Positions 1 through 15,570 of a stretch of 17,199 bases of DNA are shown piece by piece (positions within the stretch are counted from its first letter, which is position 1; every line of letters begins with the position of its first letter). Origin of the DNA: a virus. Lineage: Duplodnaviria > Heunggongvirae > Uroviricota > Caudoviricetes. The DNA lies in IMG/VR virus record IMGVR_UViG_2563366937_000009. One strand, 5' to 3'. The notes beneath the pieces are model-generated. The model was not told where the DNA came from and did not search any database. It saw only the letters and a list, made by a program, of their open reading frames with translations. The translations under genes were made by a program, and so were the position numbers.

Positions 1-348
1 TTACGAATTACTACGGCGCTGTTGCTTTTCCGCATGTACGCGTTTCACTATCTTATAAATCCATTGCAGCGTCAGATTATATTTCTTCGCTAATTCGGCG
101 TAGTTGCGACCATCGCACTCGCTATAGATTTGGTAGTCACGCTCCGACGCCCGTCCGGAGATCCCTTTCGGGAAATAAATGCTTTGCCCACCCCAGTTAC
201 GCATCATTCGGTCGGCAATGGCAAAGCCCACATTTTCCGCCGATGAGCTGTCGAGATTGATGCTCTCAATCAGAACTTGCGATGCATGAAACGCCAGGTC
301 GTTAATGATCTCCGGTGTCCGGGCCATCTCTTTTGATTTTCGTATCAT
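1..348 (-). CDS. Mor-family (phage Mu Mor/C-like) transcriptional activator, complete, divergently oriented from the lysis/tail genes
   Basis: 115-aa ORF; C-terminal half (GGQSIYFPKG...RDYQIYSECDGRNYAELAKKYNLTLQWIYKIVKR) fits the Mor/C family pattern of a conserved G-x-x-IYIPK segment followed by a helix-turn-helix. GGAG sits about 7 nt upstream of the ATG on the - strand. The stop codon is at 1-3, so the gene is complete. Confidence 0.7.
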   Translation of the reverse strand: MIRKSKEMARTPEIINDLAFHASQVLIESINLDSSSAENVGFAIADRMMRNWGGQSIYFPKGISGRASERDYQIYSECDGRNYAELAKKYNLTLQWIYKIVKRVHAEKQQRRSNS

Positions 349-571
349 TTTTCATCTCCATATATCTTGCATCCTGTATAAGACCCGATGCGTGTAAAAC
401 CACGGATATACGCTAAGCAGTTGTCATTACTGCCACTCAATACATTCAACAAACAAATAAACAATCACCAAAAATATAAATTTTTAATATTAATGAACGT
501 CATAAATTCACAAAATAAATATATTGTTTGCGTTATGTTTCTTGTCAACTGGAGTATCATTTTACACGATG

Positions 572-587
572 CTGTATGTGCATACAG
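572..587. promoter_or_regulatory. LexA (SOS) operator, CTGT-N8-ACAG
   Basis: Sequence CTGTATGTGCATACAG, flanked to give tgCTGTATGTGCATACAGta. It matches the CTGT-N8-ACAG consensus and differs by one base within the 16-mer from the E. coli recA operator (CTGTATGAGCATACAG, quoted from memory). It lies in the divergent intergenic region between the Mor-like gene and the lysis cassette. Confidence 0.55.
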
Positions 588-885
588 TATTATTTTTACC
601 TGTAGTGTAAAAAGATCGTTTCCCTCACAGTCGCTGACTTTCTTAAACAAACTTTAAAAATCAAATGACTATGGACTATTCCTACGATTCACCGTCCTCT
701 TTTCCCTACATAATGACGCGCTTATTCTCCAGGACACCTTTTGCTCTTTTATTAATGGGTGGATTTATTAGCAAGCATGTTCATTTATAGAGGATCTATT
801 TTTTAAAGTTATTTATTAAAGCTTTTTTCATTCTTCACTGGAGGGATCTGGCGACACTAAACGCTCACTTATCAGGAGATATCGT

Positions 886-1173
886 ATGAAAAAAGTCACT
901 TTTCCCCGTCTTTCCGGCTGGCTGGTCGCTTCCGTCGCGCTGTTTGTCGCGATCGGCTGGACATCTTCCGCACAGATCCCGGTTGTCATTTATAAACTAA
1001 GTCTGGTTTCGCTCGCCGCTGTGCTGGGATACTGGCTCGATCGCAGTCTGTTTCCCTGGGCGCGGCCTGACTCATTTTGCCCCTGGGAAGAGGCGCGATG
1101 CTGCGCGGCGGCAATGATTCGTCGGGCTATCATCGTTGCAGCCGTCTGCCTTTCCGTCGCGTTAGGACTTTAG
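886..1173 (+). CDS. small membrane protein with three predicted hydrophobic segments; putative holin
   Basis: 95 aa with hydrophobic stretches LSGWLVASVALFVAIGW, VVIYKLSLVSLAAVLGYWL and AIIVAAVCLSVALGL. AGGAG lies 7 nt upstream of the ATG. Its stop is 2 nt before the endolysin start. The holin call rests on position and topology only. Confidence 0.45.
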   Translation: MKKVTFPRLSGWLVASVALFVAIGWTSSAQIPVVIYKLSLVSLAAVLGYWLDRSLFPWARPDSFCPWEEARCCAAAMIRRAIIVAAVCLSVALGL

Positions 1174-1175
1174 TG

Positions 1176-1781
1176 ATGCAGGTAAAATTTCTCGCGCTAA
1201 TTACTCTGTTCGCGTTCTTCCCGCTTAACGCATCTGAACCACCGCGAGCATCTCTGGCATGGCGAAACGAACTGATTCGAACTGCACGAGAAGTCTGGGG
1301 ACTGAACGCCCCGGTGGCAGACTTCGCCGGGCAGTTGCACCAGGAATCAGCCTGGCAGCCAATGGCGCGTTCCCCCGTCGGCGCACAGGGTATGGCGCAA
1401 TTTATGCCTGCCACAGCGACATGGATAAGCCAGTTGTATCCACAGCTACGTGAAAACAAGCCCTATAACCCAACCTGGGCGATTCGCGCATTGGTGCAAT
1501 ATGACCAGCATTTGTGGAAAAACATCTCGGCGAAAAATGGCTGCCAGCGTATGGCGTTTACCCTAAGCGCCTATAACGGTGGTCAGGGATGGGTTAATCG
1601 GGATAAAAAACTGGCCGCATCCAAAGGGTTAGATGCCACCATCTGGTTTGGTCATGTTGAGCACGTCAACGCCGGGCGTAGTGCCGCAAACTGGCGAGAA
1701 AATCGTCACTATCCGAAGATGATCCTCTATCAACATGCCGCCCGCTACTTACTCTGGGGGCAGGCAAGCTGTCTTCACTAA
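1176..1781 (+). CDS. lytic transglycosylase (SLT-domain) endolysin with N-terminal signal peptide or signal-anchor
   Basis: The track ORF 1077-1781 runs through the upstream gene, so the start is set at the ATG at 1176 (GTG at 1174 is an alternative). N-terminus MQVKFLALITLFAFFPLNA is signal-like. The LHQESAWQP...GAQGMAQFMP segment resembles the family-1 lytic transglycosylase catalytic Glu-Ser motif. Confidence 0.75.
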   Translation: MQVKFLALITLFAFFPLNASEPPRASLAWRNELIRTAREVWGLNAPVADFAGQLHQESAWQPMARSPVGAQGMAQFMPATATWISQLYPQLRENKPYNPTWAIRALVQYDQHLWKNISAKNGCQRMAFTLSAYNGGQGWVNRDKKLAASKGLDATIWFGHVEHVNAGRSAANWRENRHYPKMILYQHAARYLLWGQASCLH

Positions 1782-1793
1782 TCAGAGGGGCCG

Positions 1794-2108
1794 ATGAAAC
1801 TCAGTATCGATTTTTGGGAAGTGATCTCCCTTATGCTTTCCTTCGTTGGATTAATGTTTGCTGCCGGAAAATTGCTGTTAGCGCAAATTGAAAAAAGACT
1901 TAATGAGCGTTTTGAATCTCTGGAAAACGCGCGCCGGGAATCAGAAACAAGCTGGTCGAAACTGGAAAGAGAATTTCTCGAATTTCGTGCCGAGCTTCCG
2001 CTGCATTATGTCCGCAGAGAAGATTATCTTCGTGGCCAGGCAGTATTAGAAGCAAAGCTGGATGCCTTATATAGCAAAATAGAGCTATTACAACGTGGCA
2101 GCTATTAA
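1794..2108 (+). CDS. membrane-anchored coiled-coil protein; possible i-spanin-like lysis accessory protein
   Basis: 104 aa with an N-terminal hydrophobic segment (ISLMLSFVGLMFAAGKLLLA) followed by a charged, helical region. GAGGGG RBS. It sits immediately after the endolysin. No embedded lipoprotein (o-spanin) ORF was seen. Confidence 0.4.
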   Translation: MKLSIDFWEVISLMLSFVGLMFAAGKLLLAQIEKRLNERFESLENARRESETSWSKLEREFLEFRAELPLHYVRREDYLRGQAVLEAKLDALYSKIELLQRGSY

Positions 2109-2113
2109 ATACA

Positions 2114-2146
2114 TCCCCACCTTTACATAAGTGTGGGGATTTTTTA
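2114..2146 (+). terminator. intrinsic terminator after the lysis cassette
   Basis: 7-bp stem TCCCCAC (2114-2120) pairs with GTGGGGA (2133-2139) around a 12-nt loop, followed by TTTTTTA. Confidence 0.6.
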
Positions 2147-2254
2147 TAGCCATTCAATTTTTTCTCTAAATCACATTAAAAGATTCTTCACCTTCACTGC
2201 TTCAGAATACATTTCAACGATAACGAAGTGAGCAGTAATTAAGGAACACCCTAT

Positions 2255-2710
2255 ATGGAAATTTTATCTGTAATTAATTCTGTTGTGACCAGATTACGTG
2301 AACAGAATCCCGAAATGGACGTATTTATTTCATCGGTTGATGCCAATAAATATATTCCGCAGACGCAGCAAGTTACAGTGATTATTAATTATAGCGGTTC
2401 TCTATTTGCCATGCCTGAAAGCAGTGATGCCCTCGTGCAACAGCAAACGCTCCGTTTAACTGCCACCGTTATTGTTGGCAAAAATTGTGACGCGTTAAAC
2501 GCACTGGATCGCATACGCAGCGCACTGGGGGGGATCCAGCTTCCTGATTGCGAGCGTCTTCTTTGGCTTGAAACAGAAATCAATGCAGGCAAGAGCGGTG
2601 GTTTCTGCCGCTACATCCTGGAAATGGCGACCAGATCGCTGTTTATCGCAAAACGGGAAAGCACGGACCTTACCCTGCTTACTGAAGTTAATTACGAGGA
2701 AACTGAATGA
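2255..2710 (+). CDS. conserved tail-module protein directly upstream of the sheath gene (Mu gp37-like position); function unknown
   Basis: 151-aa ORF with an AAGGAA RBS. Its stop overlaps the next start (ATGA at 2707-2710). Assignment is by position in the Mu gene order, not by a recognised motif. Confidence 0.45.
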   Translation: MEILSVINSVVTRLREQNPEMDVFISSVDANKYIPQTQQVTVIINYSGSLFAMPESSDALVQQQTLRLTATVIVGKNCDALNALDRIRSALGGIQLPDCERLLWLETEINAGKSGGFCRYILEMATRSLFIAKRESTDLTLLTEVNYEETE

Positions 2711-2904
2711 AATACATCTACAACGGCCCGGCAAGCGGCGTCACCCTTGCCGACGGACAAGAAATCTTATTGTGGCCGAACAGTGAAATTGATCTGCCAG
2801 AAGAAAACGAGTGGGTTATGACCATGATTGCCCGCAATCACCTGACTCCTGTCATCACTCAGGAAGAACAAAATAACGGAGAGGAAATTGTACATGGCAG
2901 CTAA
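2707..2904 (+). CDS. small tail-module protein (Mu gp38-like position)
   Basis: 65-aa acidic ORF, translationally coupled to the upstream gene and overlapping the sheath start. Confidence 0.4.
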   Translation: MKYIYNGPASGVTLADGQEILLWPNSEIDLPEENEWVMTMIARNHLTPVITQEEQNNGEEIVHGS

Positions 2905-4318
2905 TTACCTGCACGGTGTAGAAACCATTGAAATTGAAACCGGTCCGCGCCCGGTTAAAGCGGTAAAATCCGCTGTAATCGCTTTAATCGGTAGTGCACC
3001 ATGCGGTCCGGTAAACAAACCAACATTGTGCCTTTCTGAAAGCGATGCCGCGCAGTTTGGCTCGACTCAGGCTAACTTTACTATCCCGCAGGCGCTGAAG
3101 GCGATTTATGACCACGGCGCCGGTACGGTGGTGGTGATTAACGTACTGGATCCGGCAAAACATGGCTCCAGCATCAGCAATGAGAGTATCACTTTTGATT
3201 CCAACAACCAGGCAAAACTGGCTCATCGTGCGGTGCGCAATGTCGTCCTGAAACCCTCTTCAACATCAGCCACTACGTATAGCAGCGCAGCGTTTCATGT
3301 TGATGAACAAACAGGAATAATCACTCGTGCAGAAACTGAGATCCCTGCCGGAGCGAAAGTTTGCGCCTATTACTCATGGGCCGATCCAACAAAAGTTACC
3401 GCAGCCGATATTATTGGCGCCGTTAATACCGCAGGCGATCGCACGGGGATGAAACTGCTACAGGATACCTATAACCTGTATGGTTTCTACGCCAAAATCC
3501 TGCTTGCTCCCGTTTTCTGTACGCAAAAATCGGTCACCACCGAACTGATTGCTCAGGCGGAAAAACTCGGTGCTATCGCCTACATTGACGCCCCAATCGG
3601 TACTACATTCCAGCAGGTACTGGCTGGTCGCGGCTCGAAAGGCGCAATCAACTTCAACACCAGTTCTGACCGTGCGCGTTTGTGCTATCCGCACGTCAAA
3701 GTTTATGACGGCTCAACCAACCAGGAAGTTCTCGAACCGCTATCTTCACGCGCTGCCGGACTGCGTGCCAAAGTAGACCTGGAGAAAGGTTTCTGGTGGA
3801 GCAACTCAAACCAGGAAATTCAGGGCATTATCGGTATCGAACGTTCACTTTCCGCAATGGTTGATGACCCGCAAAGTGAAGTGAATCAGCTCAACGAAAA
3901 CGGCATTACCACTGTTTTCAATAGTTACGGCTCTGGTCTGCGTTTATGGGGCAACCGCACTGCGGCATGGCCAACCGTGACCCATATGCGTAACTTTGAA
4001 AACGTTCGCCGCACGGGTGATGTGATTAACGAGTCGATCCGTTATTTCAGCCAGCAGTATATCGATATGCCGATTAATCAGGCACTAATTGATGCCCTGA
4101 CCGAGTCGGTAAATACCTGGGGCCGTAAGCTGATTGCCGACGGCGCACTGCTTGGCTTTGAGTGCTGGTACGATCCGGCGCGAAATTCACCGACCGAACT
4201 CAGTGCCGGGCATTTATTGCTGAGCTATAAATTCACCCCGCCACCGCCGCTGGAACGTCTGACGTTTGAAACTGAAATTACCTCTGAATATTTAGTCTCT
4301 CTGGAGAGCAATAGCTAA
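2894..4318 (+). CDS. contractile tail sheath protein (P2 FI / Mu L-like)
   Basis: About 474 aa. Start placed at the ATG at 2894, which has a GGAGAGG RBS (the track start at 2888 is an alternative). The C-terminal YGSGLRLWGNRTAAWP segment is the sheath-family G-x-R-x-WG-x-RT signature. A tube gene follows immediately. Confidence 0.88.
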   Translation: MAANYLHGVETIEIETGPRPVKAVKSAVIALIGSAPCGPVNKPTLCLSESDAAQFGSTQANFTIPQALKAIYDHGAGTVVVINVLDPAKHGSSISNESITFDSNNQAKLAHRAVRNVVLKPSSTSATTYSSAAFHVDEQTGIITRAETEIPAGAKVCAYYSWADPTKVTAADIIGAVNTAGDRTGMKLLQDTYNLYGFYAKILLAPVFCTQKSVTTELIAQAEKLGAIAYIDAPIGTTFQQVLAGRGSKGAINFNTSSDRARLCYPHVKVYDGSTNQEVLEPLSSRAAGLRAKVDLEKGFWWSNSNQEIQGIIGIERSLSAMVDDPQSEVNQLNENGITTVFNSYGSGLRLWGNRTAAWPTVTHMRNFENVRRTGDVINESIRYFSQQYIDMPINQALIDALTESVNTWGRKLIADGALLGFECWYDPARNSPTELSAGHLLLSYKFTPPPPLERLTFETEITSEYLVSLESNS

Positions 4319-4842
4319 TGGCTGGAAAAATTCAAATTAACCGTATTACCAATGCCAATATTTATCTCGATGGTAATAACCTTTTAGGTCGTGCAACCGA
4401 AATTAAATTACCGGATGTCAGTTTAATTATGCAGGAGCATAAAGCACTGGGCATGGTCGGCAAAATCGAACTCCCGGCAGGTTTCGATAAACTGGAAGGG
4501 GAAATTAAATGGAACTCCTTTTATCAAGACGTCATGCGTAAAACGGCAAACCCGTGGCAGGCGGTAGCATTACAGTGCCGCTCCAGTATTGATTGCTATA
4601 ACTCCCAGGGGAAAGCGAATCAATTAGCGTTAGTCACTCATTTGACTGTTATGTTTAAAAAGAATCCATTGGGAACATTTAAACAGAATGAAAACCCGGA
4701 ATTCAGCAGCGCCTTTGGTTGTACCTATATTAAACAGGTGGTCGATGGTGAAACACTACTGGAACTGGATTACCTGGCGAATATTTTCCGCGTTAACGGC
4801 GTGGATCAATTAAGTACCTATCGCAATAACATCGGTGGCTAA
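4318..4842 (+). CDS. tail tube protein (P2 FII / Mu M-like)
   Basis: 174 aa. Start overlaps the sheath stop (TAATG). Size and position are as expected for the tube gene downstream of the sheath. Confidence 0.8.
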   Translation: MAGKIQINRITNANIYLDGNNLLGRATEIKLPDVSLIMQEHKALGMVGKIELPAGFDKLEGEIKWNSFYQDVMRKTANPWQAVALQCRSSIDCYNSQGKANQLALVTHLTVMFKKNPLGTFKQNENPEFSSAFGCTYIKQVVDGETLLELDYLANIFRVNGVDQLSTYRNNIGG

Positions 4843-4847
4843 GTTAT

Positions 4848-4868
4848 TCGGGGCTACGGCCCCGATTT
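4848..4868 (+). other. GC-rich stem-loop just downstream of the tube gene
   Basis: TCGGGGC (4848-4854) pairs with GCCCCGA (4859-4865) around a TACG loop, followed by TTTCC. It may act as a partial terminator or mRNA stabiliser. Confidence 0.35.
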
Positions 4869-4892
4869 CCGCATGACCAATAAGGATACAAA

Positions 4893-5210
4893 ATGAAAGA
4901 ACATTATACCTTACAGTTCCCGTTTACTTCAGCGGCGGGAGACGTAATTAACACTCTGCAATTACGTCGCCTGAAAGTAAAAGATATGCGCAACGCGCGC
5001 CGGATCAGCGAAAAACCAGAAGAATGGGATGAACCGCTAATGGCTGCAATGACCGGACTGGTGCCAGAAGATTTAGCTGAAATGGATTTGCTGGATTACC
5101 AGGCATTGCAGAAACGATTTCAATCCATGCTTAGCGTGGCTACAGAATCCGCCACTGTTATGGCAAGCGATGGCGTTACTGGCGAGATGGTTTCGCTTTC
5201 CGCCCAGTGA
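4893..5210 (+). CDS. tail assembly chaperone (P2 gpE / Mu gp41-like)
   Basis: 105-aa acidic protein between the tube and tape-measure genes, the conserved chaperone position. An overlapping +1-frame extension is open to 5298. Confidence 0.65.
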   Translation: MKEHYTLQFPFTSAAGDVINTLQLRRLKVKDMRNARRISEKPEEWDEPLMAAMTGLVPEDLAEMDLLDYQALQKRFQSMLSVATESATVMASDGVTGEMVSLSAQ

Positions 5211-5399
5211 GATAGACGCCCTTACCGTCGATGACTTTAGCAACTGGCTGGATGAAGCCAACGCCCAAATAAAAATCGAATATGACTCGCAGACCTGATG
5301 TCTGCGAGTTTCCCAAGCCCGTCAGGTTTATTTCTTCCCTGCCCTTTTTTTTAGAAAAATAACCAGCGGGCCATTATCAATATTTAAAGAGAAACAATT

Positions 5400-8713: not shown

Positions 8714-8922
8714 TGCGATACCTTGAACATATCACCACCGACGGCGAACGCTGGGATAACCTGGCATGGCATTACTACGGTGATGCACTGGCTTATGAAC
8801 GCATTATCGCCGCCAATCCACATGTCGCCATTTATCCGGTACTGCCTGCCGGTATTCAGCTCATTATTCCGGTCATTACCGTCAACAAGACCGTATCGGA
8901 GATCCCACCATGGCTGAGATAA
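8713..8922 (+). CDS. tail protein X (P2 gpX-like, LysM-like)
   Basis: 69 aa. TAATG overlap with the upstream gene. The conserved position between the gpU-like and gpD-like genes matches the phiCTX/R-pyocin order U-X-D. Confidence 0.65.
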   Translation: MRYLEHITTDGERWDNLAWHYYGDALAYERIIAANPHVAIYPVLPAGIQLIIPVITVNKTVSEIPPWLR

Positions 8923-9950: not shown

Positions 9951-9959
9951 GGAGGCAAT

Positions 9960-10661
9960 ATGAAAGGAGTAACCCGGCAAACGGGGATTATCAGCGATAT
10001 TGACGAAACCAGCGTTCGGGTGCGGGTCACGCTACCAGAGTGTGACAATCTGAAGAGTAACTGGCTTGCGGTGCTGCAGCGCAATTCTCAGGACAATAAG
10101 GATTACTGGCTACCGGATATGGGCGAACAGGTGGAAGTTCTGCTGGATGATAACGGTGAAGATGGCGTGGTGCTGGGCGCAGTATATTCAACGGTAGACA
10201 CTGCGCCAGTAGCATCGCGCGACAAACGCTATGTCCAGTTTTCTGATGGCGCAGCGTTTGAATATGACCGCAGCACCCACCAGCTTACGATTAATGGTGG
10301 CATCGAAAAAATCGTGATTGAGGTTATTGACCGTACCAGCCTGACATCGCCCAACGTTGAGGTTAAAGCCCAACACGTCACCGTGACTTCCGACACTGTT
10401 GATGTGAAAGCCACCGATGTCAGCATTGAAGCCAGTAAGGTCGATGTTAAAGCGGCAGCAGTGACGGTAGATGCGCCCATGAGCACCTTTACCGGCAACG
10501 TCACGGTGATGAAAAAACTCACCTGGCTTGGTGGCATGGCAGGAAGTGGAGGCATCGGCAACGCCGCCACGATAACCGGCAATGTCAACGTGATTGGTAA
10601 CGTTCAGGCCAGCGGCACATTGCAGGACAGCGGTGGCAACTCCAACCACCATTCACACTGA
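9960..10661 (+). CDS. baseplate spike protein (P2 gpV / Mu gp45-like)
   Basis: 233 aa with a strong AGGAGG RBS. N-terminal domain (GIISDIDETSVRVRVTLPECDNLKSNWLAVLQ) followed by a repetitive beta-strand-like C-terminus (VTVTSDTVDVKATDVSIEASKVDVKAAAVTVDA) typical of spike needles. Confidence 0.8.
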   Translation: MKGVTRQTGIISDIDETSVRVRVTLPECDNLKSNWLAVLQRNSQDNKDYWLPDMGEQVEVLLDDNGEDGVVLGAVYSTVDTAPVASRDKRYVQFSDGAAFEYDRSTHQLTINGGIEKIVIEVIDRTSLTSPNVEVKAQHVTVTSDTVDVKATDVSIEASKVDVKAAAVTVDAPMSTFTGNVTVMKKLTWLGGMAGSGGIGNAATITGNVNVIGNVQASGTLQDSGGNSNHHSH

Positions 10662-10666
10662 CGTTT

Positions 10667-10696
10667 AACCCGCCTGATGGCGGGTTTTCTCTTTTT
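10667..10696 (+). terminator. intrinsic terminator-like hairpin inside the tail operon, between the V-like and W-like genes
   Basis: AACCCGCC (10667-10674) pairs with GGCGGGTT (10679-10686) around a TGAT loop, followed by TTCTCTTTTT. Confidence 0.5.
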
Positions 10697-10759
10697 AATC
10701 AATCAGTTTTCTAAATCGCTTTAATATCCCCGCCGCCTGTTCAGGGCGAAAATACCCTC

Positions 10760-11119
10760 ATGAACACGAAAACACGCCCCTCTACGCTGCACTGGCAACC
10801 CGCCTTGCAGCGGCCTGAAGAATACGTCTGCGGACTGGATGATATTCACCAGGCAATACACATCATTCTGCGCACACCGCGCGGCAGTGATCCCCACAGA
10901 CCGCTGTTTGGCAGCAACTTGTGGCACTACATCGATTATCCCATCGAGCGGGCGATCCCGCATGTGGTAAGGGAGTCGGTAGAGGCCATCCGCCAGTGGG
11001 AACCGCGCTGCCGGTTGCTGAAGGTGACACCGGTAATCGACGGGGAACATCTGACGTTACGTGTGCAATGGCGCGCCGCTGACGGCGTAATCAACTCAAC
11101 GGAGGTGTTATGGCGATAG
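10760..11119 (+). CDS. baseplate wedge protein, GPW/gp25 family
   Basis: 119 aa. The pattern (HQAIHIILRTPRGSDPHRPLFGSNLWHYIDYP...EAIRQWEPRCRLLKV) fits the gp25/GPW family. Confidence 0.85.
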   Translation: MNTKTRPSTLHWQPALQRPEEYVCGLDDIHQAIHIILRTPRGSDPHRPLFGSNLWHYIDYPIERAIPHVVRESVEAIRQWEPRCRLLKVTPVIDGEHLTLRVQWRAADGVINSTEVLWR

Positions 11120-12225
11120 CCGAACCCGATTTTATTGACCGCGATCCTGCGCAAATTACCAGCGAGATGATTGCGCAGTACGAAGATGCCAGCGGCAAAA
11201 AGCTCTACCCGGCACAGGCCGAGCGGTTGCTGATTGACCTTTTTGCCTATCGTGAAAACCTTGTACGCATCGCCATTCAGGAAGTGGCGAAACAGAATCT
11301 GGTCGCGTATTCCCGCGCGCCAATGCTGGATTATTTAGGTGAGCTGGTGGGCGTTCACCGCTTACCTGCACAACCGGCAAAAACCACGTTGCAGTTTTCG
11401 GTAGCCAGTAAGAATCGAAATAACATTCTAATTCCACAAGGAACACGTGCCAGCGCCTCTGACAGCGTGATGTTTGCTACCGATGAAGATGTTCTGATTC
11501 CGGCGGGAAGTTTGCATATAGCCGTTCCCGCCACCAGTCTGGCAACAGGCGAAGCGGGCAATGGCTGGCAGCCTGCACAGATTAGCGCCCTTGTTGACAG
11601 GATTGGTTATTACGATATCAGCGTGACCAACCTGACGGCCTCAACCGGCGGCTGCGGTGAAGAGAGCGATGACGCACTACGCCAGCGGATCCAACTGGCG
11701 CCGGAAAGTTTCAGCAATGCGGGCAGCTATGGTGCCTACCGCTTTCATACGCTTTCCGTAAGCCAGTCGATTATTGACGTCGCGGTACTGGGGCCGGACG
11801 AAGGATTGCCAGAAGGCTGCGTGGAGATCTACCCGCTAACGCTGAATGGTCTGCCGGGCGTGGAACTGCTCGCGCAAATTGAACTGGAGGTTAGCAAGGA
11901 GAAAAAACGTCCGCTGACCGACAAAGTAAGTGCGAAATGCGCCGTTAGGGTGCCGTATGAAATCCGTGCGCAGCTCACACTGTTTACCACTGCCGATCAG
12001 GAGACAACGCTGGCTGCGGCGCGTAAAGCGATTAGCCTCTGGACGCAACAGCGGCAGAAACATCTGGGACAGGACATTGTGCCAAACCAGATAATCAAAG
12101 TGTTACAAGTCGATGGTGTCTATGACGTTGCGCTGAATATGCCTACAAAACGTATTTTGCAGGCGCATGAGTGGGCGGAATGCACCGCGATAGACGTCAC
12201 GATTGCCGGAGTCAGCGATGGATAA
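11110..12225 (+). CDS. baseplate J-like protein (P2 gpJ / Mu gp47-like)
   Basis: 371 aa. Overlaps the W-like gene by 10 nt. Size and position fit the Baseplate_J family. Confidence 0.85.
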   Translation: MAIAEPDFIDRDPAQITSEMIAQYEDASGKKLYPAQAERLLIDLFAYRENLVRIAIQEVAKQNLVAYSRAPMLDYLGELVGVHRLPAQPAKTTLQFSVASKNRNNILIPQGTRASASDSVMFATDEDVLIPAGSLHIAVPATSLATGEAGNGWQPAQISALVDRIGYYDISVTNLTASTGGCGEESDDALRQRIQLAPESFSNAGSYGAYRFHTLSVSQSIIDVAVLGPDEGLPEGCVEIYPLTLNGLPGVELLAQIELEVSKEKKRPLTDKVSAKCAVRVPYEIRAQLTLFTTADQETTLAAARKAISLWTQQRQKHLGQDIVPNQIIKVLQVDGVYDVALNMPTKRILQAHEWAECTAIDVTIAGVSDG

Positions 12226-12934
12226 ATTGCTGCCGCCACCGCCGCTTGCCAGCGATGAGCGTTTTTCAACTCTGGCAAATATCGCCACCGAGCGTTTTGC
12301 CCAACTCGATCTGACAGCGTTGATGGTTTATCTGGTAGACCTGGTTGATGCTTCGGCATTACCTGCCCTTGCAGAACAATTTCACGTTCAGGGGCTGGAA
12401 GGTTGGTTATTTACCACTGATGAACGGGAGAAGCGCGAGTTAATTAAGCAAGCCATTGAGCTGCATAAATATAAAGGAACGATTTGGGCGGTACGGCGGG
12501 TGCTGGAAATACTTTCGCTACCAGGAACTATTTCAGAATGGTTTGAATATGGGGGGAAGGCTTATTTTTTTAAGGTTGATATTACACTAGAGGAAAAAGG
12601 ATTAAATGAAGATGAATTTAATGCACTTATCGCATTAATTCACGAATATAAAAATGTTCGTTCAAAACTTGAAAGCATTACCATCTGGCTTATTAACCAA
12701 AGTCAAATGCCAGTTATTGGCAGCGCAATCCAGGGTGGGGAGGTTATTACTGTATTACCCCCTATTGCGGAGAGTATTTGGCAGTCATCGACACTATTTT
12801 TAGCGACAGGTTACTGTGTTGAGGAATACATAAATCTCTTTCCGTATCAACCTGATCGCATTACACAATCCCAACCGATTCATGTCGGCACAGGATACTG
12901 GAGTACCGAAATTATGTCTGTATACCCGGAGTAA
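12203..12934 (+). CDS. tail protein I (P2 gpI / Mu gp48-like)
   Basis: 243 aa. Overlaps the J-like gene by 23 nt. The N-terminal LLPPPPLA motif region and position fit gpI. The C-terminal half is markedly AT-richer than the upstream genes. Confidence 0.7.
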   Translation: MPESAMDKLLPPPPLASDERFSTLANIATERFAQLDLTALMVYLVDLVDASALPALAEQFHVQGLEGWLFTTDEREKRELIKQAIELHKYKGTIWAVRRVLEILSLPGTISEWFEYGGKAYFFKVDITLEEKGLNEDEFNALIALIHEYKNVRSKLESITIWLINQSQMPVIGSAIQGGEVITVLPPIAESIWQSSTLFLATGYCVEEYINLFPYQPDRITQSQPIHVGTGYWSTEIMSVYPE

Positions 12935-12936
12935 GT

Positions 12937-14433
12937 ATGGCAAGTGAATTTTTTACAATATTAACCACCGCAGGCAAATCAAAAATTGCCTCTGCGCTGG
13001 CGGAGCAAAAACAGATCCGCCTACAAACTATGGTGGTCGGCGATGGCAATGGTCATTATGTCGAGCCGACAGAAAGTCAAACCAAAGTTGTGCATGAAGT
13101 CTGGCGTGGGCAACTAAATACCTTAAAAATTGCGCCTGATAATCCAGCCTGGGTTATCGCAGAGACGATTATTCCTGAACAAGTAGGTGGCTGGTACGTC
13201 CGCGAGGTTGGGCTACTGGATGCTGACGGCACACTAGTTGCTATTGGCAAATTTCCGGAAACCTATAAACCGCTATTACCTGCAGGTGCCAGTAAGCAAA
13301 TTGTTATTCGCGCAGTTATGGAAGTGACCAATGCTGACGCGGTGACGCTTTTGATCGACCCTTCAGTCGTTATAGCAACCAGAGAATATGTCGATGAAAC
13401 GCTGAAAGAACATCAACAATCACGGAATCATCCTGATGCGACGCTGACGCAGAAAGGTTTTACGCTGCTGAGTAATGCGACCAATAGCGATGATGAAACC
13501 AAAGCGGCCACGCCAAAAGCGGTAAAAGCGGCATATGACCTGGCAAATAGTAAAGCCGCCACTAGTCATACTCATGCCTGGAATCAGATTAATGGTATCC
13601 CTGACGGTACGCTGACGCAGAAAGGGATCGTTAAACTTAACAACACGACAAATAGCCCCAGTACGGCGGAAGCTGCAACGCCAAGTGCGGTTAAGGCGGT
13701 GTATGACCTGGCAAATAGTAAAGCCGCCACTAGTCATACTCATGCCTGGAATCAGATTACTGGTATCCCTGACGGTACGCTGACGCAGAAAGGGATCGTT
13801 AAACTTAACAACACGACAAATAGCGCCAGTACGACGGAAGCTGCAACGCCAAGTGCGGTTAAGGCGGTGTATGACCTTGCTAATGGCAAGGCTTCGGCAA
13901 GTCATACGCACGCATGGGAGCAGATTACCAACATTCCCGACGCAACTCTTGGTAAGAAAGGAATTGTTCAGCTAAGCAGTATCGTCCCTAGTACCAGTAC
14001 AACAGAAGCAGCAACGCCATACTCAGTTAAGGTTGCCTATGACCTTGCGAACACTAAAGCTCCGGCAAGCCATGCTCATCCATGGAATCAAATTACTGGT
14101 ATCCCGGACGGTACGCTGACGCAAAAAGGGATTGTGAAGCTTAATAACACAACAAACAGCACCAGTACGACAGAGGCAGCGACACCCAGTGCGGTGAAGG
14201 CAGCAATGGACAAAGCAAATACAGCGTTGAATAACACCACTGCATCTATATCAGATGTCAGACTAGGTGCTAAATTTGATCAGGTTATGGCAAAAGGGGG
14301 GCGCTATGAATTCTCTGGTAATGTTCTGACTGGGTTGAGAATTATCGGAGAAGTAGATGGAGATGATCTCGCTATATTTCGCCCACTTCAGATAAAGGTT
14401 AGAAATTCTTGGTATACGGTAGGGCAACTTTAA
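12937..14433 (+). CDS. tail fibre protein with conserved N-terminal baseplate-attachment domain, a tandem-repeat shaft and an AT-rich C-terminal tip
   Basis: 498 aa. The N-terminal ~150 aa resemble the P2 gpH / Mu S N-terminus. Five ~56-aa repeats follow (T-L-T-Q-K-G-I-V-K-L-N-N-T-T-N-S...A-A-T-P-S-A-V-K-A-V-Y-D-L-A-N-S-K-A...S-H-T-H-A-W-N-Q-I-T-G-I-P-D-G). The C-terminus has a divergent composition. Confidence 0.85.
   Translation: MASEFFTILTTAGKSKIASALAEQKQIRLQTMVVGDGNGHYVEPTESQTKVVHEVWRGQLNTLKIAPDNPAWVIAETIIPEQVGGWYVREVGLLDADGTLVAIGKFPETYKPLLPAGASKQIVIRAVMEVTNADAVTLLIDPSVVIATREYVDETLKEHQQSRNHPDATLTQKGFTLLSNATNSDDETKAATPKAVKAAYDLANSKAATSHTHAWNQINGIPDGTLTQKGIVKLNNTTNSPSTAEAATPSAVKAVYDLANSKAATSHTHAWNQITGIPDGTLTQKGIVKLNNTTNSASTTEAATPSAVKAVYDLANGKASASHTHAWEQITNIPDATLGKKGIVQLSSIVPSTSTTEAATPYSVKVAYDLANTKAPASHAHPWNQITGIPDGTLTQKGIVKLNNTTNSTSTTEAATPSAVKAAMDKANTALNNTTASISDVRLGAKFDQVMAKGGRYEFSGNVLTGLRIIGEVDGDDLAIFRPLQIKVRNSWYTVGQL
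13441..14280 (+). repeat. in-frame tandem repeat of 168 bp, about five copies, inside the tail fibre gene
   Basis: Copies start at 13441, 13609, 13777, 13945 and 14113. Copies 2 and 3 are nearly identical at the DNA level; copies 4 and 5 are more diverged. Confidence 0.85.
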
Positions 14434-15086
14434 TGGAATATAAAAATTTTACACTCTATAAACCAACAGAAAGTATTGGTGGTATTTTTTATCTAAAATC
14501 TGCTGACGATGTTGATTGGTACGAGGCACAAAAAAACTTTTCTACCGAAACGTTAAAAATTGCTTATGATAGCACAGGTAGAATTTGCATTGCGGATACT
14601 GATGCCTCAGCGATTTGGCCAATAAATTTATCTATCAGTGAGATCTCATCTGAGAATGTTCCTGATGATTTTTCAACAAATGGGAAATGGCTCTGGAATG
14701 GCGAAAGTATAATCAGCTCTGTAACAATCGTAACCGCTAAAAAAAATAAAGTAGAGGATATCAAAAATCAACGCGACACCATCACAACCGATTACATCAT
14801 CATCAACAACCATCACTTCCACAGTGATACAAATAGCCGTATCCAACAGCTTTCACTCACTAAAATGGGAGCGGAGAAAAAAATCCTTCCAGGTTTAATG
14901 TGGAAAACTAAAAATAACGGTCTGATTGAGTTAACCAACGAAATCGCTGCCCAGTTTGAATCGGTAACAATAGATCACGATATGCGCCTGTTCGCCAACG
15001 CCCAGCGTCATATCGCGGCGGTGGAAGCTCTGGACGATATTCAGGCAGTGCTCGACTACGATTACTCCACAGGCTGGCAACCATGA
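14433..15086 (+). CDS. tail fibre assembly protein (chaperone; P2 gpG / Mu U-like)
   Basis: Start placed at the ATG overlapping the fibre stop (TAATG at 14431-14435); the track ORF starts upstream at 14409. AT-rich variable N-terminal part and a conserved C-terminal tail (RLFANAQRHIAAVEALDDIQAVLDYDYSTGWQP). Confidence 0.75.
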   Translation: MEYKNFTLYKPTESIGGIFYLKSADDVDWYEAQKNFSTETLKIAYDSTGRICIADTDASAIWPINLSISEISSENVPDDFSTNGKWLWNGESIISSVTIVTAKKNKVEDIKNQRDTITTDYIIINNHHFHSDTNSRIQQLSLTKMGAEKKILPGLMWKTKNNGLIELTNEIAAQFESVTIDHDMRLFANAQRHIAAVEALDDIQAVLDYDYSTGWQP

Positions 15087-15538
15087 GTAAAACCACTGTC
15101 TGGCTCGCTTGTTATAAGGGCCGAACAGAGCACCGTGGTATTGCCCGACTGGCTGACTGGCTTACCCGTAAAATCACACGCGGTAGTTATTCCCACTGTG
15201 AATTAGCCGTTAAGCATGGTGAAAAGAGTTACCTTTGTTACTCTGCATCACTGCGCGATCGCGGTGTACGCGGAAAGATAATGCCGTTACCTGCGGATAA
15301 GTGGGATCTATTGCCGCTCCAGGCCAGCCTTCAGGATGTGGAAACTTTTTTCCGTAAACATGATGGCAAACGCTATGACTGGCGCGGAGCCTTAGGAATT
15401 ATCACCGGCAATAAAGAACAGTGCGATCGCCTGTTTTGCAGTGAATTTTGTGCTGAATTTCTGCAATTAAAAGACAGCTGGCGATACTCACCCAATCACC
15501 TGTATGCCTTAGTAAGTAGCTGGCAATCCCATCCGTAA
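15083..15538 (+). CDS. hypothetical 151-aa protein, translationally coupled to the fibre assembly gene; possible permuted papain-fold (NlpC/P60-superfamily, YaeF/YiiX/LRAT-like) enzyme
   Basis: ATGA stop/start overlap with the upstream gene. A His-containing motif (GSYSHCELAV) lies N-terminal to a Cys-Ser-Glu motif (LFCSEFCAEFL), the order seen in permuted papain-fold enzymes. No signal peptide. The family assignment is from pattern memory only. Confidence 0.35.
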   Translation: MSKTTVWLACYKGRTEHRGIARLADWLTRKITRGSYSHCELAVKHGEKSYLCYSASLRDRGVRGKIMPLPADKWDLLPLQASLQDVETFFRKHDGKRYDWRGALGIITGNKEQCDRLFCSEFCAEFLQLKDSWRYSPNHLYALVSSWQSHP

Positions 15539-15543: not shown

Positions 15544-15570
15544 ACCGGGCACAATGCCCGGTTCCTTATA
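15544..15570 (+). terminator. putative terminator at the end of the tail operon
   Basis: ACCGGGC (15544-15550) pairs with GCCCGGT (15556-15562) around an ACAAT loop, followed by TCCTTATAT. The T-run is weak. Confidence 0.4.

What the first reader, a model, noticed from the sequence alone, without database searches (positions are those of the whole stretch)
1..15538. Head-less contractile-tail cluster with its own lysis cassette and activator: candidate R-type tailocin
The window has a full tail gene set (sheath, tube, chaperone, tape measure, U, X, D, V, W, J, I, fibre, fibre chaperone) in one + strand operon. It also has a holin-like/endolysin/membrane coiled-coil cassette and a divergent Mor-family activator. 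Over 17.2 kb there is no capsid, portal, terminase, protease, integrase or replication gene. In phage Mu the head genes lie between the lysis gene and the sheath gene; here only about 1 kb (two small tail-associated ORFs) separates them. The gene order is a hybrid of the Mu order (V-W-J-I-fibre after D) and the phiCTX/R-pyocin U-X-D block, with a Mor-type rather than PrtN/Ogr-type regulator. I do not recognise this arrangement as a described tailocin class.
Basis: partly seen in the sequence, partly recalled or inferred. Interest (0 to 1): 0.75.

Follow-up and report, generated by a model that had tools for sequence, protein, structure and literature searches.

The report
Head-less BcepMu-type tailocin cluster
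This is a phage-tail-only gene cluster with its own lysis genes and an SOS-controlled activator; it has stayed intact next to lysC in Escherichia, Salmonella and related genera, so it is very probably a bacteriocin-like "tailocin" of the already known carotovoricin (BcepMu-derived) kind, not a new class.

Summary
Window 1-15538 holds a divergent Mor activator, a holin/transglycosylase/membrane-protein lysis cassette and a complete contractile-tail gene set. No head, packaging, transposase, repressor or integrase gene lies in the 34.4 kb examined in the source genome (lysC/pgi on the left, yjbD/rluF on the right).

The tailocin reading is supported. The same cluster sits at lysC-yjbD in about 3% of complete E. 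coli genomes, in Salmonella (LT2 STM4198-STM4219), in Superficieibacter and in Phytobacter. All genes tested are intact, with dN/dS of 0.00-0.23 and synonymous divergence as deep as the flanking core genes. A perfect LexA box and three conserved dyad promoters suggest the route SOS, then Mor, then the late operons.

The claim of an unrecognised hybrid arrangement is not supported. The gene order is exactly that of Bcepmuvirus (BcepMu gp01, gp21-22, gp25, gp37-52) minus the early and head blocks. The same ancestry underlies carotovoricin of Pectobacterium.

What differs from carotovoricin is the locus, a separate clade in my tree, a cis-linked Mor with a LexA box, and the absence of spanin genes. 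I found no published evidence of particles or killing.

Verdict: new member of a known kind; moderate interest.

The parts
1..348 (-). Mor-family late transcriptional activator (115 aa)
   Evidence: Pfam PF08765, E 7e-38; phrog_532. 49% identical to BcepMu gp01, 27% to Mu Mor and 34% to Mu C. 100% identical in E. coli; dN/dS 0.
572..587 (.). Canonical LexA (SOS) box CTGTATGTGCATACAG. It overlaps a promoter-like site: TTTACA at 561-566, a 16-nt spacer, TACAGT at 583-588.
   Evidence: The only CTGT-N8-ACAG in the window. Both half-sites are invariant in six genomes from four genera, in an otherwise divergent spacer. Absent from carotovoricin loci, BcepMu and PhiKM. Promoter-like site.
799..858 (+). 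Conserved block upstream of holin: TTTTTTAAAGTTATTTATTAAAG plus the dyad-like TTAAAGCTTTTTTC (816-829), about 42 nt before a -10-like GACACT (853-858). Candidate Mor-dependent late promoter.
   Evidence: Invariant island in alignment A1. Unique in the window. Carotovoricin and Lelliottia carry TTAAA-N4-TTTAA at the same place.
886..1173 (+). Holin (95 aa, about 3 hydrophobic segments)
   Evidence: PF13272, E 1e-27; phrog_1528; BcepMu gp21 homologue; hydropathy.
1176..1781 (+). SLT-type lytic transglycosylase endolysin with an N-terminal Sec-like signal sequence
   Evidence: PF01464; 52% identical to BcepMu gp22; N-terminus MQVKFLALITLFAFFPLNAS.
1794..2108 (+). 104-aa membrane-anchored protein. 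Homologue of BcepMu gp25; syntenic with Mu gp25 'releasin' but with no sequence similarity to it.
   Evidence: 46% identical to BcepMu gp25 and 50% to the PhiKM membrane protein; phrog_462. No DUF2730 match and no BLASTP match to Mu gp25. Membrane segment at residues 9-32.
2113..2140 (+). Intrinsic-terminator-like hairpin closing the lysis unit
   Evidence: -15.5 kcal/mol, z -4.5. A GC-rich hairpin followed by a T run at the same position in E. coli, Salmonella and Phytobacter, although the stem bases differ.
2166..2210 (+). Dyad CTAAATCACATTAA (2166-2179), about 43 nt before the -10-like AGAATA(C). Candidate late promoter for the Gp37-to-V unit.
   Evidence: One of only two YTAAA-N4-WTTAA matches in the window. 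Conserved in all head-less relatives. In complete phages the same motif precedes the head protease gene.
2255..2710 (+). Gp37-family protein (probable tail completion/terminator protein)
   Evidence: PF09646, E 3e-32. PDB 2GJV, E 2e-54, six chains in the entry. BcepMu gp37 homologue. The terminator role is an inference.
2707..2904 (+). 65-aa BcepMu gp38-like protein
   Evidence: phrog_895; 45% identical to BcepMu gp38.
2894..4318 (+). Tail sheath
   Evidence: PF04984 and PF17482. 71% identical to BcepMu gp39 and 74.6% to phage PhiKM. Best PDB match is the R-pyocin sheath PA0622, E 5e-45.
4318..4842 (+). Tail tube
   Evidence: PF04985, E 5e-56.
4893..5210 (+). Tail assembly chaperone (P2 E / BcepMu gp41 type)
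   Evidence: PF10109.
5170..5298 (+). Conserved overlapping reading frame (42 aa, +1 relative to the chaperone). Equivalent to BcepMu gp42, the second chaperone product.
   Evidence: The peptide LLARWFRFxPSEID...WLDEA..QIK is conserved in essentially all related loci and in BcepMu. phrog_8286. Frame analysis.
5400..7760 (+). Tape measure protein (786 aa)
   Evidence: PF10145.
7760..8713 (+). GpU-like tail protein with a long C-terminal extension
   Evidence: PF06995; phrog_788, E 4e-128.
8713..8922 (+). Tail protein X
   Evidence: PF05489.
8910..9950 (+). GpD-type baseplate hub
   Evidence: PF05954.
9960..10661 (+). GpV spike (OB fold; C-terminus ...NHHSH)
   Evidence: PF04717; C-terminal sequence.
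10667..10686 (+). Terminator hairpin followed by a T-run
   Evidence: -15.3 kcal/mol, z -4.3.
10711..10753 (+). Dyad CTAAATCGCTTTAA (10711-10724), about 42 nt before the -10-like GAAAAT (10748-10753). Candidate late promoter for the W-to-orf151 unit.
   Evidence: The same motif lies before W in carotovoricin loci and in complete phages.
10760..11119 (+). GpW/gp25 baseplate wedge
   Evidence: PF04965.
11110..12225 (+). Baseplate J
   Evidence: PF04865, E 8e-64.
12218..12934 (+). Tail protein I
   Evidence: PF09684.
12937..14433 (+). Tail fibre (498 aa): conserved N-terminal collar domain, 168-nt tandem repeats at about 13432-14201, and a variable distal part
   Evidence: PF12571 and 5 x PF03406. 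Repeats. E. coli relatives match only the proximal part.
14433..15086 (+). Tail fibre assembly protein (variable N-terminal part)
   Evidence: PF14301 and PF02413; phrog_136 and phrog_1807.
15083..15538 (+). 151-aa conserved protein of unknown role (phrog_1128); last gene of the unit
   Evidence: phrog_1128, E 2e-57. 95% identical in E. coli and 80% in Salmonella (STM4198); dN/dS 0.06-0.11. No Pfam, NCBIfam or PDB match.
15544..15562 (+). Hairpin closing the last unit
   Evidence: -18.9 kcal/mol for the stretch, z -5.1.
16048..17199 (+). Cargo gene inside the same island: GT4 LPS N-acetylglucosaminyltransferase (WaaK-like), in low-GC DNA. Not part of the tail machine.
   Evidence: NCBIfam NF012028, 666.7 bits against a cutoff of 618. 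GC 0.375. Homology to the K-12 empty site resumes only at window 17397.

Best explanation
The window is a domesticated, head-less derivative of a BcepMu-like (Bcepmuvirus) transposable myophage, fixed in the lysC-yjbD intergenic region of a divergent Escherichia lineage. It most probably works as an R-type tailocin.

Proposed sequence of events:
1. DNA damage inactivates LexA, which frees the promoter at the conserved SOS box (572-587).
2. This most likely drives the divergent mor gene.
3. Mor then activates three late promoters. Each carries a dyad of the form yTAAA-N4-TTTAA about 43 nt upstream of a weak -10. They sit in front of holin, Gp37 and W.
4. The Gp37-to-V and W-to-orf151 units build a complete contractile tail: sheath, tube, chaperones, tape measure, hub, spike, wedge, fibre and fibre chaperone.
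5. The holin, the exported SLT transglycosylase and the gp25-like membrane protein lyse the producer cell and release the particles.
6. The particles bind related bacteria through the variable fibre tip, contract, and kill by puncturing the envelope.

Shown here: gene content, ancestry, absence of heads, conservation, purifying selection and the conserved regulatory motifs. Inferred: the direction of the LexA-controlled promoter, Mor binding to the dyads, particle formation and killing.
For: (1) Complete tail set plus lysis genes, with no head, packaging, transposase or repressor gene in 34.4 kb.

(2) Collinear with BcepMu and close to it: sheath 71% and tube 70% identical. Mor, holin, SLT, gp25, gp37 and gp38 homologues are all present.

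(3) Same site, immediately after lysC, in 175 of 5426 complete E. coli genomes, in Salmonella Infantis/LT2 (STM4198-4219), in two Superficieibacter species and in Phytobacter.

(4) All 18 genes compared are intact in the window, E. coli and Salmonella, with dN/dS of 0.00-0.23. Element dS (0.2-0.5 against E. coli; about 0.6 to above 2 between genera) is about the same as dS of the flanking pgi, lysC and yjbH. That indicates long vertical descent under selection.

(5) LexA box with both half-sites invariant in six genomes of four genera within a divergent spacer.

(6) The dyad YTAAA-N4-WTTAA occurs exactly twice in the window, both times just after a terminator and before an operon start. A degenerate copy lies before holin. 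The spacing to the -10-like hexamer is 42-44 nt in all three. The motif is shared with carotovoricin loci and complete Bcepmuvirus prophages.

(7) The fibre tip and the N-terminus of the fibre chaperone vary between strains while the rest of the cluster is about 92% identical. This is the pattern described for carotovoricin fibres (PMC13195805).

(8) Carotovoricin, of the same phage ancestry and architecture, is an experimentally established SOS-inducible tailocin (PMC13195805, PMC13566846).
Against: - No experimental evidence for particles or killing from this locus was found in ten literature searches.
- No spanin (Rz/Rz1) gene is present, although BcepMu, PhiKM and carotovoricin loci have one. 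Release may therefore be inefficient or may depend on shear.
- The fibre is a pseudogene in at least one E. coli carrier (strain 20), and most E. coli lack the element, so it is dispensable.
- In Salmonella a gtrABC operon is inserted between V and W.
- The LexA-box promoter reads equally well on either strand, so the LexA-to-mor link is an inference.
- The -10 assigned before W would give a leaderless mRNA, which makes that assignment uncertain.
Confidence: 0.7

Rival explanations
1. Inert prophage remnant. The cluster is a leftover of a Bcepmuvirus prophage that is no longer assembled into anything useful. It persists by chance, or because of hitch-hiking cargo: the LPS glycosyltransferase here, gtrABC in Salmonella, and nucleotidyltransferase plus slipin in E. 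coli.
For: The Salmonella literature treats the orthologous region simply as a phage remnant or P2 integration site carrying gtr (PMC7380047, PMC3688519). The element is absent from about 96% of complete E. coli genomes. The fibre is pseudogenised in strain 20. The spanin is lost. Variable cargo sits at the right end.
Against: Eighteen of eighteen genes are intact in three genomes separated by dS of about 1 or more, with dN/dS of 0.00-0.23. Neutral decay over that distance would have destroyed the reading frames. Non-coding regulatory motifs (LexA box, three dyads, terminators) are conserved across four genera. Cargo selection would not preserve 15 kb of tail genes.
Confidence: 0.12
2. A functional tail particle or lysis module with a purpose other than bacteriocin killing. 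Examples: supplying tails to a co-resident head-only or tail-less Bcepmuvirus-like element; acting on eukaryotic cells like PVC/Afp; or serving mainly as an SOS-triggered autolysis device that releases cell contents.
For: Complete Bcepmuvirus prophages circulate in the same hosts (phage PhiKM from uropathogenic E. coli; many enterobacterial loci). The lysis cassette forms its own transcription unit. Nothing in the sequence specifies the target.
Against: The head-tail joining gene gp36 is absent. Tail proteins are only 37-75% identical to those of PhiKM, so mixed assembly is doubtful. There are no eCIS hallmarks: no AAA+ ATPase and no toxin payload genes. The fibre is of the enterobacterial phage type, with strain-variable tips. 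The closest characterised relative, carotovoricin, is a bacteriocin.
Confidence: 0.13
3. Part of a complete prophage whose head and replication genes lie outside the region examined.
For: The window alone cannot exclude it.
Against: The source genome shows core genes immediately on both sides: lysC 54 nt from the mor stop, and yjbD about 300 nt beyond the window. K-12 has lysC and yjbD adjacent, which defines an island of about 17.4 kb. The boundaries are the same in E. coli, Salmonella, Superficieibacter and Phytobacter.
Confidence: 0.02

Closest known systems
Carotovoricin Er (Ctv) of Pectobacterium: a Bcepmuvirus/'Mu-type' R-tailocin
   Same: The two share phage ancestry and are collinear: holin, SLT endolysin, gp25-like, Gp37, gp38, sheath, tube, chaperone, tape measure, U, X, D, V, W, J, I, fibre. 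Both lack head genes. Sheath identity is 75-76%. The same dyad promoter motifs precede holin, Gp37 and W. Both are chromosomal, at a fixed site, vertically inherited and SOS-linked, with recombining fibre tips (PMC13195805, PMC13566846).
   Different: - Site: lysC-yjbD here, tolC_2-ybiB for Ctv.
- Tree: a separate clade in the four-protein NJ tree.
- Regulation: this cluster has a cis-linked Mor gene and a canonical LexA box, whereas Ctv loci show neither within the 10 kb examined upstream of the sheath gene. From memory, Ctv is controlled through unlinked rdgA/rdgB.
- Lysis genes: Ctv keeps Rz/Rz1 and a gp26-like gene, and this cluster lacks them.
- Fibre inversion: no DNA invertase or fibre-inversion system is present here. 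That Ctv has such a system is from memory.
- Evidence: Ctv is experimentally proven; this cluster is not.
Burkholderia phage BcepMu and enterobacterial Bcepmuvirus prophages (e.g. Escherichia phage PhiKM)
   Same: Every protein from Mor to tail protein I has a BcepMu homologue, 25-71% identical and in the same order and orientation. Mor lies at the left end on the opposite strand.
   Different: The window lacks gp02-gp20 (transposase, B, repressor and other early genes), Rz/Rz1, and gp26-gp36 (terminase, portal, protease, capsid, adaptor). The late-promoter motif that precedes the head protease gene in the phages is fused directly to Gp37 here. A host LexA box takes the place of the phage repressor region.
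R-type pyocins (P2/phiCTX-derived) of Pseudomonas aeruginosa
   Same: The same kind of machine, with homologous parts. The sheath's best solved relative is PA0622, E 5e-45. Both are SOS-inducible, head-less and carry their own lysis cassette.
   Different: The parent phage lineage and gene order differ: P2-type elements place V-W-J-I-H before the sheath and tube genes. The regulators differ: PrtR/PrtN there, LexA box plus Mor here. Pyocin clusters encode spanins. The statements about gene order, regulators and spanins in pyocins are from general knowledge and were not tested here.
Salmonella Typhimurium LT2 locus STM4198-STM4219 ('phage remnant' carrying gtr family IV)
   Same: Orthologous element at the same lysC-yjbD site, with the same genes in the same order. 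Protein identity is 60-97%. It has the same LexA box and promoter dyads.
   Different: The Salmonella copy has gtrABC inserted between V and W and carries different right-end cargo. The literature I could search describes it only as a phage remnant or P2 integration site, as a serovar PCR marker (STM4200) and as an indole-induced gene (STM4213), never as a tailocin (PMC7380047, PMC3688519, PMC6201931, PMC3405474).

Membership tests
R-type tailocin (phage tail-like bacteriocin) | Complete contractile-tail gene set: sheath, tube, tape measure and chaperone, hub, spike, wedge, fibre and fibre chaperone | tested here: met
   Pfam and PHROG assignments for all of these parts; all reading frames intact.
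R-type tailocin (phage tail-like bacteriocin) | No capsid, portal, terminase, replication/transposition or integration genes in the element | tested here: met
   tblastn with BcepMu and PhiKM head and early proteins against 34.4 kb finds none. Core genes flank the island.
R-type tailocin (phage tail-like bacteriocin) | Dedicated lysis cassette for release | tested here: met
   Holin, SLT endolysin and a gp25-like membrane protein. No spanin was found, so the cassette is less complete than in pyocin or carotovoricin clusters.
R-type tailocin (phage tail-like bacteriocin) | Stress (SOS)-inducible regulation | tested here: inconclusive
   A perfect LexA box conserved across four genera next to mor, plus conserved late-promoter dyads. 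This is sequence evidence only. Induction was not measured.
R-type tailocin (phage tail-like bacteriocin) | Maintained by the host: fixed locus, vertical descent, purifying selection | tested here: met
   Same lysC-adjacent site in Escherichia, Salmonella, Superficieibacter and Phytobacter. dN/dS 0.00-0.23. Element dS about equal to core dS.
R-type tailocin (phage tail-like bacteriocin) | Produces DNA-free tail particles that kill related strains | not testable with these tools
   Needs induction, electron microscopy and killing assays. No report was found in ten literature searches.
Carotovoricin (Ctv) lineage | Tail and lysis module homologous to and collinear with Bcepmuvirus gp21-gp52 | tested here: met
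Carotovoricin (Ctv) lineage | Orthology: same locus (tolC_2-ybiB) and monophyly with Pectobacterium Ctv | tested here: not met
   The locus is lysC-yjbD. Ctv loci have a TolC-family gene upstream. The NJ tree of sheath, tube, J and D places the window clade apart from the Ctv clade. The tree is a simple distance tree, so a shared head-less ancestor is not excluded (see the shared promoter-Gp37 fusion).
Carotovoricin (Ctv) lineage | Lysis cassette with Rz/Rz1 spanin and a gp26-like gene | tested here: not met
   Present in all Pectobacterium and Samsonia loci. Absent from the window, E. coli, Salmonella, Superficieibacter and Phytobacter. No lipobox reading frame was found.
Complete Bcepmuvirus prophage | Transposase and B, repressor, terminase, portal, protease, major capsid protein | tested here: not met
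   None detected in the window or its flanks.
P2/phiCTX-type tailocin (R-pyocin type) | P2 gene order and PrtN/Ogr-type regulator | tested here: not met
   The order is that of BcepMu and the regulator is of the Mor family. The sheath is homologous to PA0622 only at the family level.
Extracellular contractile injection systems (Afp/PVC type) | AAA+ ATPase, duplicated Afp-type sheath and tube genes, toxin payload genes | tested here: not met
   No such domains in any reading frame of the cluster. Afp3 and Pvc2 are only distant sheath matches, E about 5e-4.

The most novel reading that the evidence does not exclude
The lysC-yjbD cluster is an independent and very old domestication of a Bcepmuvirus tail, predating the Escherichia-Salmonella split and separate from carotovoricin. 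In it the phage repressor circuit was replaced by a host LexA operator in front of a retained Mor activator, and the spanin was discarded. LPS-modifying cargo has been recruited repeatedly into the island (a WaaK-like glycosyltransferase here, gtrABC in Salmonella), perhaps as linked self-protection against the particle's own receptor specificity. If so, model strains such as S. Typhimurium LT2 and E. coli IAI39 carry an uncharacterised, active R-type tailocin.
Probability: 0.3. Interest if true: 0.6.

Novelty: new member of a known kind. Interest (0 to 1): 0.45.

Why it matters
If the cluster is active, Escherichia and Salmonella own a chromosomal R-type tailocin, and this includes the model strains LT2 and IAI39. 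Contractile bacteriocins have hardly been studied in these genera. Such a tailocin would bear on strain competition in the gut and on the meaning of the serovar-specific fibre gene STM4200. It would also offer a natural enterobacterial scaffold for engineered tailocins.

The locus is also a clean example of long-term prophage domestication. One insertion site is shared by four genera, head and early genes are deleted, a late promoter is re-fused to the first tail gene, and a host SOS operator is installed.

It does not reveal a new kind of machine. The architecture is that of carotovoricin.

Tried and rejected
- **ST131 'tailocin' paper (PMC9205054).** It concerns a different element, a complete P2-like prophage.
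- **BceTMilo.** It is P2/KL3-like, not BcepMu-like.
- **orf89 (388-657).** It has no family match, is absent from Salmonella and is less conserved than its neighbours. I treat it as non-coding regulatory DNA.
- **Spanin.** There is no Rz homologue and no lipobox reading frame in 1100-2260.
- **104-aa protein as a Mu gp25 'releasin'.** It has no DUF2730 match and no BLASTP similarity. Only synteny and topology agree, so this stays an analogy.
- **A -1 frameshift site at the end of the chaperone gene.** None was found. The conserved extension is in the +1 frame, and how it is expressed is unresolved.
- **Rfam.** No RNA family matched in the window.
- **Repeat search.** No att-like repeats within the window; only fibre tandem repeats.
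- **Homologue search with Mor.** It returned only close relatives, so it could not confirm my recollection that Pectobacterium RdgB is a Mor homologue.
- **Bobay et al. 2014** (domesticated prophages of E. coli and Salmonella) is not in the library.
- **Taxon of the source assembly GCA_000407925.1.** It could not be named. Its pgi and yjbH are about 95.5% identical to E. coli, which suggests a divergent Escherichia lineage.

Full report
**1. What is in the window**

The plus strand from 886 to 15538 is almost fully coding, and a divergent gene occupies 1-348 on the minus strand. Pfam and PHROG scans identify the following:
- Regulator: a Mor-family activator (1-348).
- Lysis: a holin (886-1173), an SLT lytic transglycosylase (1176-1781) and a 104-aa membrane protein (1794-2108).
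- Tail: Gp37 (2255-2710), a 65-aa gp38-like protein, sheath, tube, an E-type chaperone, tape measure, GpU, X, D, V, W, J and I.
- Fibre region: a 498-aa tail-collar fibre, a DUF4376/Caudo_TAP fibre chaperone and a 151-aa protein (15083-15538).

All reading frames are intact.

**2.

The window comes from assembly GCA_000407925.1, scaffold KE136726.1.
- On the left, the lysC stop codon lies 54 nt beyond the mor stop. It is followed by pgi, yjbEFGH, psiE and malG.
- On the right, after a glycosyltransferase gene, come yjbD, rluF, pepE, yjbB and metH.

In E. coli K-12, lysC and yjbD are neighbours. Homology to that empty site ends at the lysC stop and resumes at window position 17397. The island is thus about 17.4 kb and includes the glycosyltransferase.

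I ran tblastn with every BcepMu protein from gp01 to gp38, and with the head, early and Rz-like proteins of phage PhiKM, against 34.4 kb of the source. It finds only Mor, holin, SLT, gp25, gp37 and gp38. There are no head, packaging, transposition, repressor or integrase genes. The element is truly head-less.

**3. Ancestry**

The sheath is 71% identical to BcepMu gp39 and 74.6% identical to the sheath of Escherichia phage PhiKM, a Bcepmuvirus. The annotated BcepMu map runs as follows:
- the Mor/C-like gp01 at the left end on the minus strand;
- early genes gp02-gp20;
- holin gp21, SLT gp22, Rz/Rz1 gp23/24, gp25 and gp26;
- terminase, portal, protease, capsid and adaptor, gp27-36;
- gp37, gp38, sheath, tube, gp41(-43) and tape measure;
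- U, X, D, V, W, J, I and fibre.

Every window protein from Mor to I has its BcepMu and PhiKM counterpart in the same order. The window is therefore BcepMu minus the early block, minus Rz/Rz1 and minus gp26-gp36.

**4. Relatives elsewhere**

A ~92% identical copy covering at least 80% of the window occurs in 175 of 5426 complete E. coli genomes, always on the chromosome. In strain 20 and in IAI39 it lies between lysC and yjbD.

A ~78% identical copy lies at the same site in Salmonella Infantis. The record's notes equate it with LT2 genes STM4198-STM4219, and gtrABC (STM4204-4206) is inserted between V and W.

A scan of one genome per species with the sheath protein returned 80 loci. I classified them with window and BcepMu proteins:
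- Same architecture as the window (Mor, then holin, SLT, gp25-like, then Gp37 onward, with no Rz and no gp26): Superficieibacter (two species) and Phytobacter. All three lie directly after lysC.
- Carotovoricin type: Pectobacterium species and Samsonia carry a head-less version that keeps Rz and a gp26-like gene and has a TolC-family gene upstream. This matches the published carotovoricin locus between tolC_2 and ybiB (PMC13195805).
- Other head-less forms: Brenneria, Lonsdalea, Lelliottia and Chromobacterium.
- Complete prophages: many other loci.

A neighbour-joining tree of sheath, tube, J and D puts the window, E. coli, Salmonella, Superficieibacter and Lelliottia in one clade. Carotovoricin falls in another, and the Brenneria head-less forms sit among complete Brenneria prophages. 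Heads were therefore lost several times.

Whether the lysC clade and carotovoricin share a head-less ancestor is not settled. Both have the same late-promoter motif fused to Gp37, and the tree is only a distance tree.

**5. Selection and age**

For 18 genes compared between the window, E. coli strain 20 and Salmonella, all frames are intact and dN/dS is 0.00-0.23.

| Comparison | Element dS | Flanking core dS |
|---|---|---|
| window vs E. coli | 0.04-0.50 | pgi 0.23, yjbH 0.22, lysC 0.71, yjbD 0.88 |
| window vs Salmonella | 0.64 to saturation | 0.75-1.73 |

The same holds for all pairs among Escherichia, Salmonella, Superficieibacter and Phytobacter.

A Mu-like phage transposes almost at random (general knowledge). 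One shared site, with host-like divergence, therefore points to a single old insertion that was inherited vertically and often lost, all the while under purifying selection. That is hard to reconcile with an inert remnant.

**6. Regulation inferred from conserved non-coding DNA**

The 537-nt mor-holin spacer is poorly conserved except for two islands (alignment A1).

- Island 1 is CATTTTACAC..ACTGTAT-N4-ATACAGT. It is a canonical LexA box (window 572-587, the only CTGT-N8-ACAG in the window) that overlaps a promoter-like site. This box is present in all six lysC-type genomes. It is absent from carotovoricin loci, BcepMu and PhiKM.
- Island 2 (799-829) lies about 42 nt before a conserved GAyACT hexamer upstream of holin.

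Dyads of the same kind, YTAAA-N4-WTTAA, occur exactly twice more in the window, at 2166 and at 10711 (about 0.3 expected by chance). Each follows a strong terminator hairpin and sits 42-44 nt before a -10-like hexamer, ahead of Gp37 and of W respectively.

The same motifs stand before holin, Gp37 and W in carotovoricin loci. In complete Bcepmuvirus prophages they stand before holin (BcepMu itself), the head-protease gene, the chaperone gene and W.

A dyad centred near -43 is where, from memory, Mu Mor binds its middle promoter. I therefore read these as Mor-dependent late promoters and the LexA box as the SOS input, most probably on mor. The strand of the LexA-controlled promoter cannot be decided from sequence. 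Both readings use the same conserved bases.

A further TTAAA-N5-TTTAA dyad at 643-657 is conserved in Escherichia, Salmonella and Phytobacter. It might mediate Mor autoregulation, but this is speculative.

**7. Assembly and lysis details**

- Chaperone. A 42-aa reading frame (5170-5298) overlaps the end of the chaperone gene in the +1 frame. It encodes a peptide conserved in all related loci and in BcepMu gp42. The second chaperone product is thus preserved, although how it is expressed is unclear.
- Gp37. It matches PDB 2GJV at E 2e-54, an entry with six chains. A hexameric ring would suit a tail-terminator role (inference).
- Spike. It ends in ...NHHSH.
- Endolysin. It has a Sec-type signal sequence.
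- The 104-aa protein. It is the homologue of BcepMu gp25 and occupies the place of Mu gp25, the 'releasin' of PMC9239132, but shows no sequence similarity to it.
- Spanin. No spanin gene exists in this clade. This is a real difference from BcepMu, PhiKM and carotovoricin, and a possible weakness of the release step.

**8. Specificity and cargo**

E. coli relatives match the window's fibre only over its proximal ~315 residues, and the fibre chaperone only over its C-terminal part. The fibre shaft holds four to five 168-nt tandem repeats. A variable receptor-binding end on a conserved machine is the pattern reported for carotovoricin (PMC13195805). It also explains why STM4200 serves as a Typhimurium-specific PCR target (PMC6201931).

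The right end of the island carries variable cargo:
- here, a low-GC gene that passes the NCBIfam cutoff for LPS N-acetylglucosaminyltransferase;
- in E. coli, a nucleotidyltransferase and a slipin;
- in Salmonella, other genes, plus gtrABC inside the cluster.

BcepMu has an O-antigen acyltransferase at the same end. LPS-modifying cargo next to a machine that probably recognises LPS suggests linked self-protection. This is an untested idea.

**9. What is known**

Carotovoricin is an established SOS-inducible tailocin. A 2026 paper calls it a 'Mu-type tailocin' and compares it with the Mu-like prophage ECA41 (PMC13566846). Yamada et al. 2006 traced it to the ancestor of a Salmonella Typhi prophage (title as cited in PMC13195805).

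The Salmonella orthologue of the present cluster appears in the literature only in four ways:
- as a phage remnant or P2 integration site carrying gtr (PMC7380047, PMC3688519);
- as a PCR marker;
- as an indole-induced gene (PMC3405474);
- as motility-screen hits (PMC4219756).

A 2026 Salmonella T6SS survey set aside unnamed 'tailocin/phage loci' without study (PMC12994826). The E. coli ST131 'tailocin' of PMC9205054 is a different, complete P2-like prophage.

In ten full-text searches I found no report of particles or killing from the lysC-yjbD cluster. The library lacks most subscription journals, so such a report may exist.

**10. Verdict**

The claim of a new class or hybrid order is not supported.

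I file the cluster as a new member, possibly an independent lineage, of the known Bcepmuvirus-derived or carotovoricin-type R-tailocins. It is distinguished by its locus, by a cis-linked Mor with a host LexA operator, and by loss of the spanin. Interest is moderate (0.45). The main value is that widely used Escherichia and Salmonella strains appear to carry an unstudied, selectively maintained tailocin that can be tested directly.

Noticed in passing
window 16048-17199 (and 15563-16047): A low-GC (0.375) cargo gene inside the island passes the NCBIfam cutoff for LPS N-acetylglucosaminyltransferase (NF012028, WaaK-like). It also matches Pfam 'GT4 in conflict systems'. It is preceded by a 0.5-kb AT-rich spacer with no family match. 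It may modify the LPS core and so act as self-protection or lysogenic conversion.
   Followed up: partly
L001 30700-32624 and L093 5789-7713 (E. coli), against window 15563-17396: The right end of the island is a variable cargo slot. E. coli carriers hold a nucleotidyltransferase-domain gene plus a slipin-family gene on the opposite strand, where the window holds the glycosyltransferase. This may be a defence-type gene pair; it was not examined.
   Followed up: no
L011 19227-22062 (Salmonella Infantis; = LT2 STM4204-4206): A gtrABC O-antigen glucosylation operon is inserted between spike gene V and wedge gene W of the Salmonella copy. It lies exactly at the terminator/promoter gap that corresponds to window 10662-10759.
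   Followed up: partly
window 1782-1793; compare L009 12513-13112 and L010 33393-34043: The Rz/Rz1 spanin genes found in BcepMu, PhiKM and carotovoricin loci are missing from the whole lysC-type clade. Only 12 nt separate the endolysin gene from the gp25-like gene, and no lipobox reading frame exists.
   Followed up: yes
window 5170-5298: A 42-aa frame overlaps the chaperone gene in the +1 frame, not the -1 frame. It is conserved across all Bcepmuvirus-type tails. No canonical slippery heptamer was found, so how it is expressed (own start codon, +1 or -2 shift) is open.
   Followed up: partly
window 643-657: A further conserved dyad, TTAAACAAACTTTAA (N5 spacer), lies between the LexA box and the holin promoter. 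It is shared by Escherichia, Salmonella and Phytobacter. A conserved GATC-containing block lies at about 607-618. This might be a site of Mor autoregulation.
   Followed up: no
source flanks: lysC (L007 10403-11752) and yjbD (L002 14504-14776): The two core genes that touch the island are far more diverged from E. coli strain 20 (dS 0.71 and 0.88) than pgi and yjbH a few kb away (dS 0.22-0.23). This suggests that divergent alleles hitch-hike with the island, or that recombination breakpoints lie near it.
   Followed up: no
window 13432-14201: The fibre gene contains four to five tandem copies of a 168-nt (56-aa) unit, 73-90% identical, corresponding to the Phage_fiber_2 repeats. This is a likely source of fibre-length variation.
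   Followed up: no
window 388-657: An 89-aa reading frame in the mor-holin spacer has no family match, is absent from Salmonella, and spans the LexA box. It is almost certainly not a gene.
   Followed up: yes
L014 (Lelliottia wanjuensis), L017/L018 (Brenneria), L076-L082 and L086 (Chromobacterium): Other head-less Bcepmuvirus derivatives exist with different remnants. Lelliottia and Brenneria keep the transposase between Mor and holin. In Chromobacterium, Mor sits directly before Gp37 with no lysis cassette in between. These may be intermediate or independent domestications.
   Followed up: partly
phage-collection hits OR845313, OR851066, OR845311 and others: Short unannotated GenBank records named 'Escherichia phage ECO95 1-6-1' and 'Salmonella phage S.Kent 1-2-1' are 75-87% identical to pieces of this tail cluster. 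They may be fragments of the chromosomal element recovered from induced lysates.
   Followed up: no
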